Source: an uncultured Chloroflexia bacterium
GTDB lineage: Bacteria; Chloroflexota; Limnocylindria; Limnocylindrales; CSP1-4
Assembly: GCA_963780375.1 (NCBI GenBank)
Contig: CAWABV010000008.1
Span: 1,002,052-1,066,051, forward strand
Length of the DNA stretch: 64,000 bases
Reading direction: 5' to 3'
The number at the start of each line of letters is the position of its first letter. Position 1 is the stretch's first letter. The notes under the pieces were generated by a model that worked only from the letters and a program-made list of their open reading frames with translations, was not told the origin of the DNA and searched no databases. Below, one piece after another: positions 40,626 to 49,677 of the stretch. Both the position numbers and the translations under genes were made by a program.

Positions 40626-43274
40626 CTACTCGTGCTGGCCGGGACCGAGCGCGGCGACCGCGCCGTGTCCGTCGTGGCCGTGTCCGTCGTGCCCGTTGCC
40701 GTTGCCGCGGGCACCCGGCGCGATACCCGTCAGCGTCGGCGGGAGCACCGGGAGCAGCCGGGCCGGGTCGTAGACGCGCCCCTCGGCGCGCGCTCGCTCC
40801 ACCCAATCGCGCTCGCGCCGGATGTACGTGACCTCGGTCTCCCTGTCGATCGCGGCGAGCGCGATGAGGTCGATCGCCGGGTCGGTCCGGCCGGTGTGCG
40901 AGAGTTCGAAGTCGGCACCGTCGCGCAGGGCGTCATACGGGCACGCGTCGACGCAGATGCCGCACAGGATGCAGCGGCTCTCGTCGACCTCGTACTTCTC
41001 GAGGACCCGTGGCTTGGGCATCAGGGCGCCGGTCGGACAGGTCTCGGCGCACCGACCGCACGAAACGCACGGTGTGTCGTTCAGGCTCATGTCCAGCGGC
41101 GTCGTGACGAGCGTATCGAAGCCGATGCGCATGAAGTCGTAGCACGCGGCGCCGACGACCTCGGCGCAGACGTTGGCGCATCGGCCGCAGTCGATGCAGC
41201 GCGACGGCTCGCGAAGGATGAACGAGTGCGAGTCATCGCGGATGTAGTCGTGGTTGATGCCGGTGAAGCGGTTCTCGGTGATCGATCGGTAGCCTGCGCC
41301 CTGGTGGTTGTTCGGCTCGAGCGTGGCGAGCGTGGTGCCGTACTCGATGCCGAGCCGCCGGAGGTCGCAGAACCCGATCGCCTCGCACGTGCACTGCAGG
41401 CAGCGGGTCAATTCCGCCATCGCGTCTTCGCGCGAGTAGGGCAGCTCGTACTCGATGTAGCTGCGGTTGCGCTCCTCCGCAGATAACGGCTTGAGCCGGT
41501 AGCGCGGCTCCTTCACCTCACCGGTGAACGGCACGATCGACAGGAACTCGGGCTGTGGCTCCGCCAGGGTCTGTCGCGTCCGGATCGCGTCGAGGTCCAT
41601 GCCCTTGAGGTAGGCGTCCACCGCATAGGCCGCTCGCCGGCCCTCGGCGACGGCCTCGACCACGGTCGCCGCGCCGATGCGCACGTCACCCGTGCCGAAC
41701 ACGCCGGGTCGGCCGGTCGAGAAGGTGACCGCGTCGGCCTTGAGCCGACGGTTCTTGGTCGCCTCGACGCCCTCGTTGCCCGGCGCGCCTGCCCAGTCGA
41801 GCTCAGGGCCCTGGCCGATGGCCAGCAGGACCCGATCGCACGGGATCGTGAACTCGGTGCCGGGCGCCGGCTCGGGCCGGCGCCGCCCGGACGCATCCGC
41901 CTCGCCGAGCTGCATCCGGATGAACTCGACGCCGGTCACCTTGCCCTTAGCGTCGGTCATGATCTTCGTCGGGCCGGCCTGGAAGATGGCGGTCACGCCC
42001 TCCTCGATCGCCTCATGGACCTCATCCGCCGCCGGCATGTCCTTCATGTCGCGGCGGTAGACGAGCGTCACCTCGCTGGCGCCCTGGCGGATCGACGTGC
42101 GCGAGCAGTCCATCGAGGTGAACCCGCCGCCGATGACGACGACGCGCTTGCCCTCGTGGCCCGGATACGGCAGACCGAGCGTGGCCGTGCGCAGGTACTC
42201 GAGGCCGTCGATGACACCATCGGCGTCCTCGTTCGGGATGCCGAGCTTGTTGGTGTCGTAACAGCCGATCGCGACCACGACCGAGTCGAAGCCCTGGTTC
42301 GTCAGGTCGTCGAGTGAGAAGTCGCGCCCGAGCCCGGCGTTGGTGACCATCCGCGCGCCGAGCCGCATGACCGACTCGTATTCGGCCTCCAGGACCTCGA
42401 TCTTCGGCAGCCGGTACTGCGGGATCCCGTAGCGGAGCATCCCGCCCGGCGCCGGGTCGCGCTCGAAGACGGTGACGTCGTGGCCAGCGATCAGCAGGTA
42501 GTAGGCGGCGGCCATGCCGGCCGGGCCGGAACCGATGACCGCGGCGCGTCGACCCGAGGTCGCCTGCGGCTCGAAGGGGACGGGCGGATCCACGCCGTCG
42601 TCGAGCATCGACTTGAGGACCTGGTCGCCGGCGTACCGATGCGAGTCGCGGATGGCGATCGCCTCGTCGACCTCGTCGCGCCGGCAGTGCTCCTCGCACG
42701 GAGCGGGGCAGACGCGGCCGAGCACGGACGGGAACGGGATCGTGCGCTTGAAGATCCGCGTGCTCTCGCGCCAGTTCGCCTCGGCATTGGCCTTGAGGAA
42801 CCCCGGGATGTCGATGTGGCTCGGGCACTTGTTCTGGCAGGGCGGCAGGCAATACGCGTTGTGGTCCGAGAAGATCAGCTCGAGGTTGGTCCGCCGCAGC
42901 CGGCGCACCTCCTCGGTCTGCGTCTGGACCTTCATCCCGTCCTCGCACGAACGCGAGCACGAGATCGGCGGATGCTCCTCGCCCTCGACCTCGACGACGC
43001 ACATCCGGCAGGCGCCGAAGCCCGGCAGCTTCGGTTCGTAGCAGAGCGTCGGGATCTCGATCCCGTTGTCGCGGCAGACCTCGAGGATCGTTTGGCCCTC
43101 GAAGCCCTCGACGACGCGACCATCGACCTCGATGCGGATGCGCGGCGTCGACTGCGGTCGCTGCGGCGCCTGTGTCTCGAGGAGGCGCTCCGCGAGGGAG
43201 GCGCGCGTCCCGGCCGGCGCCGATGCTTCGACGTCGGCGGCGCGGCGGTCCGGGCGGGCGAGCGTGTCGGTCAT
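40626..43274 (-). CDS. chimeric NuoG-position iron-sulfur flavoprotein: NuoG-type 2Fe-2S domain + GltD/NfnB-like NAD(P)H:FAD oxidoreductase module + NuoG/HydA-type N5/N4 Fe-S region + extra 4Fe-4S ferredoxin motif; no molybdopterin-like domain
   Basis: N-terminus: [51 protein letters not shown], a 2Fe-2S domain. GltD N-terminal cluster region: [22 protein letters not shown]...[12 protein letters not shown]. Dinucleotide folds: [16 protein letters not shown] and [19 protein letters not shown]. Then [15 protein letters not shown]...[16 protein letters not shown] and [16 protein letters not shown]. It is translationally overlapped with nuoF upstream and lies 3 nt from nuoJ downstream. Confidence 0.75.
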   Translation of the reverse strand: [882 protein letters not shown]

Positions 43275-49342: not shown

Positions 49343-49677
49343 GCGTACGCGAGGCCGAGCAACAGGATCAGAACGAACAAGACCATGCTGATGAACAGCC
49401 CGGCCGGGTTCAGGGTGGGGTCCTTGAAGACGATCGCCCAGAGGTAGATGAAGATCACCTCGATGTCGAACGCCACGAACAGCAGCGCGTAGATGTAGAA
49501 GGACAGCCCGAAGCGGCCGTGGGTGTCGCCGTATGTGTCGATGCCTGACTCGTAGGGAAGGCCCTTGTGCACGTCACCCTTGTTGCGATGGGAGACGAGC
49601 CACGCCGCGGCGATCGTCAGGAACACGAACGAGACGCCGGCGAAGGCGAAGCCCACGACGTACCAGAGCTGTTCCAA
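49312..49677 (-). CDS. nuoA: NADH-quinone oxidoreductase subunit A
   Basis: Three TM helices: ...YESGIDTYGDTHGRFGLSFYIYALLFVAFDIEVIFIYLWAIVF... It is the first gene of the operon. Confidence 0.85.
   Translation of the reverse strand: MEQLWYVVGFAFAGVSFVFLTIAAAWLVSHRNKGDVHKGLPYESGIDTYGDTHGRFGLSFYIYALLFVAFDIEVIFIYLWAIVFKDPTLNPAGLFISMVLFVLILLLGLAYAWRKGALTWR

What the first reader, a model, noticed from the sequence alone, without database searches (positions are those of the whole stretch)
40626..49677. Non-canonical complex I operon order nuoABCD-H-I'/E'-F-G'-JKLMN with an unusual 133-bp spacer after nuoD
The canonical bacterial order is nuoABCDEFGHIJKLMN. Here nuoD (ends 46726) is followed by nuoH after a 133-bp non-coding gap (46593-46725). 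Then come the I'/E' fusion, nuoF and the nuoG-like chimera, before JKLMN resume.

Most other junctions are tight: overlaps at nuoI'/E'-F, F-G', J-K, L-M and M-N (1 nt); a 3-nt gap at H-I' and G'-J; a 28-nt gap at K-L. This suggests a co-transcribed, translationally coupled unit in which the N-module genes were relocated downstream of nuoH/I and remodelled.

The Q-module (NuoB N2 ligands, NuoC, NuoD) and the P-module look canonical. Only the electron-input module is altered.
Basis: seen in the sequence. Interest (0 to 1): 0.7.

Follow-up and report, generated by a model that had tools for sequence, protein, structure and literature searches.

The report
Complex I with split NuoI, NADPH-type input
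This is a real, lineage-wide variant of respiratory complex I in which the usual NADH-input genes are replaced by a module derived from an NADPH/NADH transhydrogenase, inserted in the middle of the nuoI gene; the enzyme probably takes electrons from NADPH, and one of its iron-sulfur subunits must be assembled from two different proteins.

Summary
The gene order nuoA-B-C-D-H-[I'/E']-F-G'-J-K-L-M-N on the minus strand and the 133-nt nuoD-nuoH spacer are real. The order and the fusions recur in every sufficiently long locus from over 45 Limnocylindria (Chloroflexota) species genomes. They also recur in 6 of 6 Thermoleophilia loci and in independent metagenome contigs, so they are not assembly errors.

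Its N-half (model positions 1-63) starts the 225-aa protein. Its C-half (positions 71-115) ends the 882-aa protein. The layout is therefore the 11-gene order ABCDHIJKLMN with an E'-F-G' module inserted inside nuoI.

That module is closest to the Nfn/Stn-type Bfu transhydrogenases (NfnA, E 1e-163). G' carries their GltD-like FAD/NADPH domain but lacks the Fdh-like C-terminal domain.

Thermoleophilia keep the full set of bifurcation cofactors. The window version has lost them (no NuoE 2Fe-2S, no BfuB extra clusters, N3 Cys changed to Ser/Thr). I infer a non-bifurcating, NADPH-accepting, proton-pumping quinone reductase.

The spacer is a copy of a dispersed ~134-nt extragenic palindromic repeat, present at this junction in only some species. 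I found no prior description.

The parts
49312..49677 (-). nuoA
   Evidence: PF00507, E 3e-30
48560..49342 (-). nuoB (longest ORF, 260 aa). About 100 aa of N-terminal extension; the true start is uncertain. N2 ligand motifs present.
   Evidence: PF01058, E 1e-26. [23 protein letters not shown].
48004..48558 (-). nuoC
   Evidence: PF00329, E 3e-38
46726..47994 (-). nuoD, canonical quinone-site motifs, about 60 aa N-terminal extension
   Evidence: PF00346, E 3e-86. Alignment to the fungal 49-kDa subunit, the top PDB hit.
46593..46725 (-). 133-nt nuoD-nuoH spacer. It is one copy of a ~134-nt extragenic palindromic repeat that folds as a long imperfect hairpin.
   Evidence: Fold dG -65 kcal/mol, z -2.6. 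Eight orthologous copies: 37 pairs, 21 with compensatory changes. Covariance model R1 scores 136 bits here. Further copies lie at K-L junctions and on 30 non-nuo metagenome contigs. No Rfam match.
45246..46592 (-). nuoH (448 aa)
   Evidence: PF00146, E 2e-104
44565..45242 (-). 225-aa fusion of the NuoI N-half with the NuoE N-terminal domain
   Evidence: The 225-aa length is conserved in over 100 protein clusters at 83-100% identity.
45018..45209 (-). NuoI N-half (residues 12-75), with the first CxxCxxCxxxCP motif (C56, C59, C62, C66)
   Evidence: TIGR01971 positions 1-63 of 121, E 4.5e-13. The four Cys are invariant in 50 of 50 sequences.
44685..44900 (-). NuoE/NfnC-like N-terminal part only (residues ~115-186). 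The thioredoxin-like 2Fe-2S half is absent.
   Evidence: PF01257 positions 2-63 of 145. Best PDB matches are 9bov_C and NfnC. No Cys after residue 70.
43271..44563 (-). NuoF/BfuB-core flavoprotein (430 aa). It has no B2 domain and no B3/B4 domain, and its N3 site has 3 Cys plus Ser.
   Evidence: TIGR01959, E 2e-100, below cutoff. Closest PDB chains are NfnB and HydB. CGK[S/T]IPC in 46 of 47 relatives. 40% identity to the core of the 633-aa Thermoleophilia subunit.
40626..43274 (-). 882-aa G': 2Fe-2S domain, then GltD-like FAD/NADPH domain with two 4Fe-4S, then NuoG/HydA-type 4Fe-4S clusters, then NuoI C-half, then a His/Gly-rich tail
   Evidence: Pfam. NfnA 9bov_A E 1e-163 over residues 46-778; StnC 8oh5_C E 3.5e-138. 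All cluster Cys invariant in 44 of 44 sequences.
41601..42851 (-). GltD-like FAD/NADPH-binding insertion (residues ~142-558)
   Evidence: PF14691 plus PF07992. NfnB/GltD chains E 1e-68 to 1e-79. [14 protein letters not shown] and VYRR motifs.
40875..41009 (-). NuoI C-half (residues 756-800), with the second CxxCxxCxxxCP motif (C768, C771, C774, C778) followed by ...FELS
   Evidence: TIGR01971 positions 71-115 of 121, E 1.7e-11. Joined in silico to the N-half it matches NuoI 1-115 in one stretch, E 4e-27.
40030..40623 (-). nuoJ
   Evidence: PF00499
39716..40033 (-). nuoK
   Evidence: PF00420 on the identical gene in L001
37699..39687 (-). nuoL
   Evidence: PF00361, PF00662
36047..37702 (-). nuoM
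   Evidence: PF00361
34551..36047 (-). nuoN
   Evidence: PF00361
50100..51293 (-). NDUFAF7/MidA-family methyltransferase gene directly upstream of nuoA. It is an associated gene; co-transcription is not shown.
   Evidence: PF02636, E 4e-47. Same position and strand in 36 of 49 Limnocylindria loci.

Best explanation
The locus encodes a complete, proton-pumping complex I with a replaced electron-input arm.

Shown from sequence and comparison:
- The core is the 11-gene set in the order A-B-C-D-H-I-J-K-L-M-N.
- A three-gene module (E', F, G') sits inside nuoI, between its two CxxCxxCxxxCP half-motifs.
- The NuoI N-half is therefore fused to the front of E', and the NuoI C-half to the end of G'.
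- The module shares ancestry with the soluble Nfn/Stn-type BfuABC transhydrogenases.
- G' has their GltD-like FAD/NADPH domain inserted after the 2Fe-2S domain, but the Fdh-like C-terminal domain is replaced by the NuoI C-half.
- The arrangement arose once and is now typical of Limnocylindria and of a group of Thermoleophilia.
- Thermoleophilia keep every cofactor site of a bifurcating Bfu core.
- The window lineage has lost the NuoE 2Fe-2S half and the BfuB B2 and B3/B4 domains, and has changed one N3 cysteine to Ser/Thr.

Inferred:
- The two NuoI halves re-associate, so that clusters N6a and N6b are each ligated by cysteines from two polypeptides. These fusions tether the input arm to the Q-module, taking over the docking role of the missing NuoG C-terminal domain.
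- NADPH is oxidised at the FAD of G'.
- Electrons run through the G' iron-sulfur chain to N6a/N6b, then to N2 in NuoB, then to quinone, driving proton pumping.
- The remodelled F subunit is either a second (NADH) entry point or mainly a scaffold.
- The window enzyme does not bifurcate.

The 133-nt D-H spacer is an inserted copy of a dispersed extragenic palindromic repeat. At most it modulates mRNA stability or read-through. It is not part of the enzyme's design.
For: Split NuoI:
- TIGR01971 positions 1-63 match residues 12-75 of the 225-aa protein. Positions 71-115 match residues 756-800 of G'.
- The joined halves match positions 1-115 in one stretch (94 bits, E 4e-27), and 10 of the 12 best families are NuoI or NDH subunit I.
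- All eight Cys are invariant.

Origin of the module:
- G' against NfnA 9bov_A gives E 1e-163, and against StnC E 3.5e-138.
- F is closest to NfnB/HydB. E' is closest to 9bov_C and NfnC.
- StnC domain layout is described in PMC10482914.

Lineage-wide occurrence:
- At least 400 species genomes encode a relative, and the best 80 are all Limnocylindria-type MAGs.
- The order is identical in every locus that is long enough.
- Six of six Thermoleophilia loci have the same order.

Single origin: the G' proteins of the two phyla are monophyletic against 121 NfnA/StnC/Fdh-like representatives, with NJ bootstrap 98 of 100, on a region that excludes the NuoI half.

Loss of cofactors:
- Thermoleophilia I'/E has Cx4C...Cx3C, and their F is 630-642 aa with an N-terminal 2Fe-2S domain and a C-terminal 2x4Fe-4S domain.
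- The window E' covers only NuoE model positions 2-63.
- The window F is 430 aa, with CGK[S/T]IPC in 46 of 47 relatives.
- The requirement for B2-B5 and C1 in bifurcation is stated in PMC11829005 and PMC9304861.

Spacer.
Against: - There is no biochemical or structural evidence. Re-association of the NuoI halves, NADPH use and the direction of electron flow are all inferred from homology.
- The joined NuoI scores 94 bits, below the curated cutoff of 113 for TIGR01971.
- A single-sequence AlphaFold model of the joined halves was uninformative (pLDDT 37).
- Whether F still binds FMN and NADH is unclear. The NADEGDPG loop reads NGYGADPA, and N3 has only three Cys.
- I could not check whether these genomes also carry a canonical nuoEFG or a second complex I.
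- The tree is a distance tree for one subunit only.
Confidence: 0.72

Rival explanations
1. The fusions and the odd order are assembly or frameshift artefacts, or the contig is misjoined near 46.6 kb.
For: The genome is high in GC and many spurious ORFs overlap the genes. Some long-read relatives do show frameshifted genes (L208, L210).
Against: The 225-aa protein is encoded identically on contigs from four separate JGI samples. The 225-aa and ~880-aa lengths are conserved in hundreds of clusters. The order is the same in every long locus. L001 spans the D-H junction with the same 133 nt.
Confidence: 0.01
2. One reading: canonical nuoE, nuoF and nuoG were moved downstream of nuoH/nuoI within the operon and then remodelled. 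NuoI was truncated, and a GltD domain was picked up later.
For: E', F and G' are homologous to NuoE, NuoF and NuoG. F also matches mycobacterial NuoF well, at E 5e-80.
Against: The C-half of NuoI is present at the end of G'. G' aligns over about 730 residues, GltD insertion included, with NfnA and StnC. The Thermoleophilia sister operon has a full BfuB and BfuC, which canonical NuoF and NuoE lack. F and E' score best against Bfu subunits.
Confidence: 0.1
3. The architecture is as in the best explanation, but F and E' are catalytically dead scaffolds and the enzyme is a strictly NADPH-specific complex I.
For: The nucleotide loop is changed from NADEGDPG to NG[YF][GE]ADP, and one N3 Cys is Ser/Thr in 46 of 47 relatives. 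Only three Cys are invariant in F. E' has lost its cluster.
Against: The FMN phosphate loop GLRGRGGAG[FY]P, the GEET motif and VNNV are conserved under selection. A 430-aa subunit kept in hundreds of species suggests more than a scaffolding role.
Confidence: 0.25
4. The window enzyme still couples three or four substrates. It would be bifurcating or confurcating among NADPH, NADH, ferredoxin and quinone. Alternatively it runs mainly in reverse, using proton-motive force and quinol to make NADPH.
For: The module descends from bifurcating Nfn-Bfu enzymes. The Thermoleophilia version keeps all bifurcation cofactor sites. Nuo-Bfu enzymes have been proposed to confurcate NADH and ferredoxin (PMC9304861).
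Against: The window lineage lacks C1, B2 and B3/B4, which are stated to be required for bifurcation and for ferredoxin binding. Reverse operation cannot be judged from sequence.
Confidence: 0.1
5. The 133-nt spacer is a dedicated regulatory RNA of the nuo operon. It would act as a processing site, an attenuator or a protein-binding site separating the expression of ABCD from that of H-N.
For: The hairpin is conserved, with 21 of 37 pairs showing compensatory changes and with invariant internal-loop blocks. Within 1.27 Mb of nuo-centred loci it is found only at the D-H and K-L junctions, always on the sense strand.
Against: It is present at D-H in only 7 of the 39 other Limnocylindria loci measured, 8 copies counting the window; most species have 0-31 nt there or a 4-nt overlap. 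Thirty-four copies on 30 metagenome contigs have no nuo gene nearby. They lie just after stop codons in both orientations and are sometimes in tandem. There is no promoter-like site and no T-tract terminator.
Confidence: 0.15

Closest known systems
Canonical 14-subunit bacterial complex I (NuoA-N / Nqo1-14)
   Same: All 11 core subunits of the Q- and P-modules are present with canonical motifs. The input arm is built from homologues of NuoE, NuoF and NuoG. The operon is tightly packed.
   Different: The order is ABCDH-I(N)::E'-F-G'::I(C)-JKLMN. NuoI is split over two proteins. NuoE lacks the N1a half. NuoF has a 3-Cys N3 site and an altered nucleotide loop. The NuoG-like subunit lacks the molybdopterin-like C-terminal domain and carries a GltD-like FAD/NADPH domain.
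NfnABC (Nfn-Bfu) and StnABC electron-bifurcating transhydrogenases (PDB 9bov, 9n5u, 8oh5)
   Same: These are the best structural relatives of all three module subunits. The large subunit has the same 2Fe-2S, GltD-like FAD/NADPH and 4Fe-4S chain layout.
   Different: Those enzymes are soluble and have an inactive Fdh-like C-terminal domain that mediates tetramerisation. Here that domain is replaced by the NuoI C-half and the genes lie inside a nuo operon. The window version lacks C1, B2 and B3/B4, and so lacks the bifurcating core.
Predicted Nuo-Bfu complexes (Schut et al. 2022, PMC9304861): Geobacter, Deferribacteres, Planctomycetes, Nitrospirae
   Same: The concept is the same: a complex I whose NuoEFG position is occupied by a Bfu-type module, encoded in the middle of the nuo cluster.
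   Different: The paper describes Nuo-Bfu as a 14-subunit A-N cluster with BfuABC in the middle; it reports no GltD/NADPH domain (Nfn-Bfu is a separate class there), no split NuoI, and different phyla. The paper and its held supplement do not mention Actinobacteria, Thermoleophilia or a Chloroflexi Nuo type.
11-subunit complex I relatives (cyanobacterial/plastid NDH-1, archaeal Fpo, 'NUO11')
   Same: With the inserted module removed, the core gene order A-B-C-D-H-I-J-K-L-M-N is the same.
   Different: Those enzymes use ferredoxin or F420H2 through other accessory subunits, and they have an intact subunit I.
REP / extragenic palindromic repeats (for the spacer only)
   Same: It is a ~130-nt imperfect palindrome found at many intergenic sites just after stop codons, in both orientations and sometimes in tandem. 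Stems covary and blocks are conserved.
   Different: The sequence family has no Rfam entry. Copy number per genome and any transposase partner are unknown.

Membership tests
Respiratory complex I (NDH-1/Nuo) | All 11 core subunits A, B, C, D, H, I, J, K, L, M, N encoded | tested here: met
   Pfam and NCBIfam hits for every subunit. Subunit I is present as two halves on two proteins.
Respiratory complex I (NDH-1/Nuo) | N2 cluster ligands in NuoB and quinone-site His/Tyr in NuoD | tested here: met
   [18 protein letters not shown] and PGCPP. QHPSTHGVLR, LHRGVEKL and LEYVSS aligned to a solved 49-kDa subunit.
Respiratory complex I (NDH-1/Nuo) | Canonical N-module: NuoE with N1a, NuoF with a 4-Cys N3, NuoG with a molybdopterin-like domain | tested here: not met
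   E' covers NuoE model positions 2-63 only. F has C-x2-S-x2-C. G' lacks the C-terminal domain and scores 98 bits against the NuoG cutoff of 470.
Respiratory complex I (NDH-1/Nuo) | NuoI as a single 2x[4Fe-4S] polypeptide reaching the family score | tested here: not met
   Each half scores 44-49 bits. The joined halves score 94.3 bits against a cutoff of 113 for TIGR01971, although coverage is end to end.
Bfu family of electron-bifurcating enzymes | BfuB with the extra B2-B5 sites, and BfuC with the C1 2Fe-2S cluster | tested here: not met
   The window F is 430 aa, with only the 51K and NADH_4Fe-4S domains. E' has no Cys beyond residue 70. By motif and domain the feature is met in the Thermoleophilia homologues.
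Nfn-Bfu / Stn transhydrogenases | Large subunit with a GltD-like FAD/NADPH domain inserted after the N-terminal 2Fe-2S domain | tested here: met
   PF13510, PF14691 and PF07992. Alignment to NfnA and StnC over residues ~45-780. Layout per PMC10482914.
Nfn-Bfu / Stn transhydrogenases | Fdh-like C-terminal domain on the large subunit; a soluble three-subunit enzyme | tested here: not met
   G' ends about 100 residues after the 4Fe-4S domains, with the NuoI C-half. Relatives of 1000-1260 aa carry the Fdh-like domain. The genes lie within nuo.
Nfn-Bfu / Stn transhydrogenases | NADPH-dependent reduction of NAD+ and ferredoxin | not testable with these tools
   Needs enzyme assays.
Nuo-Bfu (Schut et al. 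2022) | 14-gene nuo cluster with a BfuABC module in the NuoEFG position | tested here: not met
   The module lies after nuoH and inside nuoI.
Extragenic palindromic repeats (spacer) | Multiple dispersed intergenic copies of a conserved imperfect palindrome | tested here: met
   Twelve copies in nuo loci, plus 34 on 30 unrelated metagenome contigs. Covarying stems.

The most novel reading that the evidence does not exclude
An 11-subunit complex I ancestor acquired a nucleotide-oxidising input arm a second, independent time. A soluble Nfn-type bifurcating transhydrogenase operon was inserted into nuoI. This created a respiratory complex I that feeds NADPH, not only NADH, directly into a proton-pumping quinone reductase. 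Its N6a/N6b clusters are assembled across two polypeptides. Thermoleophilia preserve the early stage, which may still confurcate. Limnocylindria show its stepwise reduction to a simple NAD(P)H dehydrogenase.
Probability: 0.4. Interest if true: 0.88.

Novelty: new variant of a known kind. Interest (0 to 1): 0.8.

Why it matters
Complex I is textbook NADH-specific. Making it accept NADPH has required protein engineering. A natural complex I with a built-in NADPH/FAD entry site would change how the redox and energy budgets of these organisms are modelled. The carriers, Limnocylindria and Thermoleophilia, are known mostly from soil and freshwater metagenomes.

The locus also provides three other things:
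- A living series from a full bifurcating Bfu module to a stripped-down input arm, all attached to the same membrane core. This bears on the long-standing question of how complex I obtained its N-module.
- A rare case of a 2x[4Fe-4S] ferredoxin subunit encoded as two halves on different proteins.
- A correction for annotation. Public records call these proteins 'ferredoxin', 'FAD-dependent oxidoreductase' or 'formate dehydrogenase major subunit'. Pipelines may therefore score these genomes as lacking NuoE, NuoG and NuoI, which I did not test.

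Tried and rejected
- **AlphaFold2 on the in-silico joined NuoI halves, single sequence.** Mean pLDDT was 37, so the model was unusable and no fold search was run.
- **Rfam.** There were no matches at gathering score anywhere in the window. Only a chance-level twister fragment lay near the spacer.
- **Promoter and terminator scan of 46300-47000.** Nothing was found.
- **Spacer as a nuo-specific RNA.** This looked attractive after the search of held loci. 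It was weakened by the metagenome scan, where no copy-bearing contig had nuo genes.
- **Longest-ORF starts for measuring the D-H gap.** These were unreliable at this GC content, so homologous starts were used instead.
- **Literature searches** for a split NuoI, an Nfn-type module in nuo, or Limnocylindria complex I returned nothing relevant. The library holds open-access papers only.
- **Cluster look-up for a cultured carrier.** Only MAG names were found.
- **Short 810-900-aa relatives of G' other than the Thermoleophilia type.** Seven of the eight end at ...NxDHCARL, probably cut at a selenocysteine codon of an Fdh-like protein (my inference); none has a NuoI half.

Full report
**Observation.** The operon lies on the minus strand. 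ORF listing and Pfam/NCBIfam scans give these genes:
- nuoA 49312-49677
- nuoB 48560-49342
- nuoC 48004-48558
- nuoD 46726-47994
- nuoH 45246-46592
- a 225-aa I'/E' protein 44565-45242
- a nuoF-like gene 43271-44563
- an 882-aa G' protein 40626-43274
- nuoJ 40030-40623
- nuoK 39716-40033
- nuoL 37699-39687
- nuoM 36047-37702
- nuoN 34551-36047

The D-H gap is 133 nt (46593-46725). I'/E'-F is a 1-nt gap. G'-J is a 2-nt gap (gene calls on the identical contig L001).

**Not an artefact.**
- The exact 225-aa protein is encoded on contigs from four separate JGI samples. One of them (L001) spans nuoB to nuoN with the same spacer.
- More than 100 protein clusters at 83-93% identity keep G' at about 870-890 aa. 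More than 100 clusters at 83-100% identity keep the fusion at about 225 aa.
- A scan of one genome per species found at least 400 genomes encoding the G' C-terminus. The best 80 were nearly all labelled Chloroflexota or Limnocylindria, with a few contigs carrying other labels.
- tblastn with the 13 window proteins gave the order A B C D H IE F G J K L M N, all on one strand, in every locus long enough to show it.
- The organism is therefore a member or close relative of Limnocylindria (Chloroflexota), not an actinobacterium.

**The key finding: NuoI is split.**
- The 225-aa protein has only one CxxCxxCxxxCP motif. It matches the NuoI model TIGR01971 at positions 1-63 (residues 12-75, E 4.5e-13).
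- The last structured part of G' (residues 756-800...[33 protein letters not shown]) matches positions 71-115 of the same model (E 1.7e-11). That is about five orders of magnitude better than any non-NuoI/NDH family.
- Joined in silico, the two pieces match positions 1-115 of 121 in a single stretch (94.3 bits, E 4e-27). Ten of the 12 best families are NuoI or NDH subunit I. The score stays below the curated cutoff of 113.
- All eight cysteines are invariant, in 50 and 44 Limnocylindria sequences respectively.
- In a 2x[4Fe-4S] ferredoxin, each cluster takes three Cys from one motif and the fourth from the other. This is established knowledge of the fold. Neither half can therefore hold a cluster alone. 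The inference is that N6a and N6b are assembled at the interface of the two proteins.
- At the gene level the operon is ABCDH-I-JKLMN with E'-F-G' inserted inside nuoI.

**What the inserted module is.**
- G' aligns over residues 46-778 with the large subunit of NfnABC from Caldicellulosiruptor (9bov_A, E 1e-163), with an archaeal NfnA (E 3e-143) and with StnC (8oh5_C, E 3.5e-138).
- These are the Bfu-type NADPH:NAD+/ferredoxin transhydrogenases.
- G' has their layout: a 2Fe-2S domain, a GltD-like domain with two 4Fe-4S clusters plus FAD and NADPH sites ([14 protein letters not shown], VYRR), then further 4Fe-4S clusters.
- Their inactive Fdh-like C-terminal domain of about 470 aa is missing and is replaced by the NuoI C-half.
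- F scores best against NfnB and HydB (E 7e-90) and somewhat lower against complex I NuoF (5e-80 to 2e-67).
- E' matches only the N-terminal third of NuoE/NfnC (Pfam positions 2-63 of 145).

**A sister version in Thermoleophilia.**
- In the 50%-identity representative library, the only full-length relative with the same C-terminal NuoI half was P0257 (44% identity).
- Its family comprises about 820-865-aa proteins from Thermoleophilia MAGs.
- Six of six loci show A-B-C-D-H-[252-253-aa I'/E]-[630-642-aa F]-[816-880-aa G']-J-K-L-M-N with a tight D-H junction.
- There the I'/E protein keeps the NuoE 2Fe-2S cysteines (Cx4C...Cx3C). F has an N-terminal 2Fe-2S thioredoxin-like domain and a C-terminal 2x[4Fe-4S] domain. 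This matches the B2 and B3/B4 sites of the full set that defines bifurcating Bfu cores; I did not locate the B5 site (definitions).
- On the shared region (residues 46-750, NuoI half excluded) the G' proteins of the two phyla form one clade against 121 NfnA/StnC/Fdh-like representatives. NJ bootstrap support is 98 of 100. This argues for a single origin of the attachment to complex I.

**Reduction in the window lineage.**
- Limnocylindria F proteins are all 430-459 aa, so they have no B2, B3 or B4 domain.
- The I'/E fusion comes in two forms. The long form (253-285 aa) keeps a modified CxCxxC...C pattern. The short form (211-238 aa), which the window has, lacks the thioredoxin-like half altogether.
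- In F the second N3 cysteine is Ser or Thr in 46 of 47 sequences, and the NADEGDPG loop reads NG[YF][GE]ADP. The FMN phosphate loop GLRGRGGAG[FY]P, the GEET motif and VNNV are retained.
- The window enzyme therefore lacks what is needed for bifurcation. It keeps an apparently intact NADPH/FAD entry site and a remodelled, conserved flavoprotein subunit.

**Most likely mechanism (inferred).**
- NADPH is oxidised at the FAD of G'.
- Electrons pass along the G' iron-sulfur chain into the two-protein NuoI clusters, then to N2 in NuoB, whose ligands are present. From there they reach quinone at a canonical NuoD/NuoH site.
- Proton pumping is driven through NuoL, NuoM and NuoN.
- F is either a second (NADH) entry point or mainly a scaffold.
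- The covalent links I(N)::E' and G'::I(C) plausibly replace the docking role of the lost NuoG C-terminal domain.
- None of this has been tested biochemically.

**The spacer.**
- In 39 Limnocylindria loci the D-H junction ranges from a 4-nt overlap to 178 nt. The median is 13 nt, and only 7 loci have 100 nt or more.
- The long spacers share a ~134-nt imperfect hairpin. In the window it folds at -65 kcal/mol with z -2.6.
- Across eight species, 21 of 37 base pairs show compensatory changes. Several blocks are invariant: GCGTTG, CGCTCACG, CGCTCGCT, TGCTC and CGCCT.
- A covariance model found copies only at D-H and K-L junctions in 1.27 Mb of nuo-centred loci.
- A metagenome scan with the core pattern, followed by the model, found 34 copies on 30 contigs. 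None had nuo genes nearby. Most lay directly after a stop codon, in both orientations, and some were in tandem.
- The element has no Rfam family. No promoter-like site or T-tract terminator lies in the region.
- The spacer is therefore an inserted copy of a dispersed extragenic palindromic repeat. It may affect mRNA stability or read-through, but it is not part of the operon's conserved design.

**Comparison with what is known.**
- Schut et al. 2022 predicted 'Nuo-Bfu' complexes in Proteobacteria, Deferribacteres, Planctomycetes and Nitrospirae, described as 14-subunit A-N clusters with BfuABC in the middle. They treated Nfn-Bfu as a separate soluble class. Neither the text nor the held supplement mentions Actinobacteria, Thermoleophilia or a Chloroflexi Nuo type.
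- Surveys of complex I diversity that I could read do not describe this arrangement.
- Further searches returned nothing.
- Database names for these proteins are generic.
- I rate it a new variant of a known kind. The concept of an alternative input module on complex I is known. New here are the Nfn-type NADPH module, the insertion inside nuoI, the split subunit I and the reduction series.

**Limits.**
- There is no structure and no enzyme assay.
- The tree is a distance tree for a single subunit.
- I could not check for other NADH dehydrogenases or a second nuo operon in these genomes.
- The literature library is open-access only.

Noticed in passing
window 50100-51293 (-): A 397-aa Methyltransf_28 protein lies directly upstream of nuoA on the same strand. 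It belongs to the NDUFAF7/MidA family, the mitochondrial complex I assembly factor that methylates an arginine of NDUFS2 (the NuoD homologue). The same gene is in the same place in 36 of 49 Limnocylindria loci, but not in the two Thermoleophilia loci tested (L005, L006). The Thermoleophilia gene tables show divergent tatA/tatC and a PBP gene upstream of nuoA instead. The target-like LHRGVEKL motif is present in NuoD.
   Followed up: partly
L009:11606-11784, L020:11604-11736, L074:11510-11642, L079:4169-4303: The same ~134-nt palindromic repeat occupies the nuoK-nuoL junction in other Limnocylindria species. L009 has copies at both D-H and K-L, and its K-L copy carries an extra insertion in the apical loop. 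In the window, K-L is only 28 nt.
   Followed up: yes
L142, L124, L160 and other loci L087-L166: Copies of the repeat on non-nuo metagenome contigs usually abut the stop codon of an upstream gene. Among those copies, 11 were sense and 4 antisense. Three contigs carry two adjacent copies. The host taxa of these contigs were not determined.
   Followed up: partly
Limnocylindria loci, e.g. L065, L054, L078 (I'/E gene): About 40% of Limnocylindria species have a longer I'/E fusion (253-285 aa) that keeps a thioredoxin-like half. Its Cys pattern is unusual (CxCxxC plus one distal Cys, and the distal Cys is missing in some). This form is intermediate between the Thermoleophilia form and the window form.
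   Followed up: partly
window 43271-44563 (-), F residues 89-102, 346-358, 392-401: F has conserved, unusual substitutions in Limnocylindria: NG[YF][GE]ADP in place of NADEGDPG, CGK[S/T]IPC in place of CGKCxPC, and LCDHER in place of LCGLG. Only L078 keeps the canonical CGKC.
   Followed up: partly
window 40629-40760 (-), G' residues ~840-882: G' ends in a His/Gly/Asn-rich tail ([15 protein letters not shown]...) that is poorly conserved among relatives. Its function is unknown.
   Followed up: no
window 48560-49342 and 46726-47994 (-): NuoB has an N-terminal extension of about 100 aa and NuoD one of about 60 aa, relative to solved homologues. NuoH is 448 aa, against about 372 aa in the Thermoleophilia operons.
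   Followed up: no
proteins P0075 (1075 aa), P0513 (1070 aa), P0530 (1046 aa): A few database entries are much longer than G'. P0075 carries a NuoJ Pfam domain, which suggests a G'::NuoJ read-through fusion. Because the genes are 2 nt apart or overlap, this could be a frameshift in a long-read assembly or a real further fusion.
   Followed up: no
L011, L075, L083, L085 (record titles): Some contigs carrying a Limnocylindria-type operon at 77-83% identity are labelled Saccharimonadales, Anaerolineae, Dormiibacterota or just 'bacterium'. These are probably binning or taxonomy errors in the MAG records.
   Followed up: no
L208, L210: Two ENA long-read contigs of the Thermoleophilia type have F and other nuo genes broken into pieces, probably by frameshift errors. 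They were not used for length statistics.
   Followed up: no
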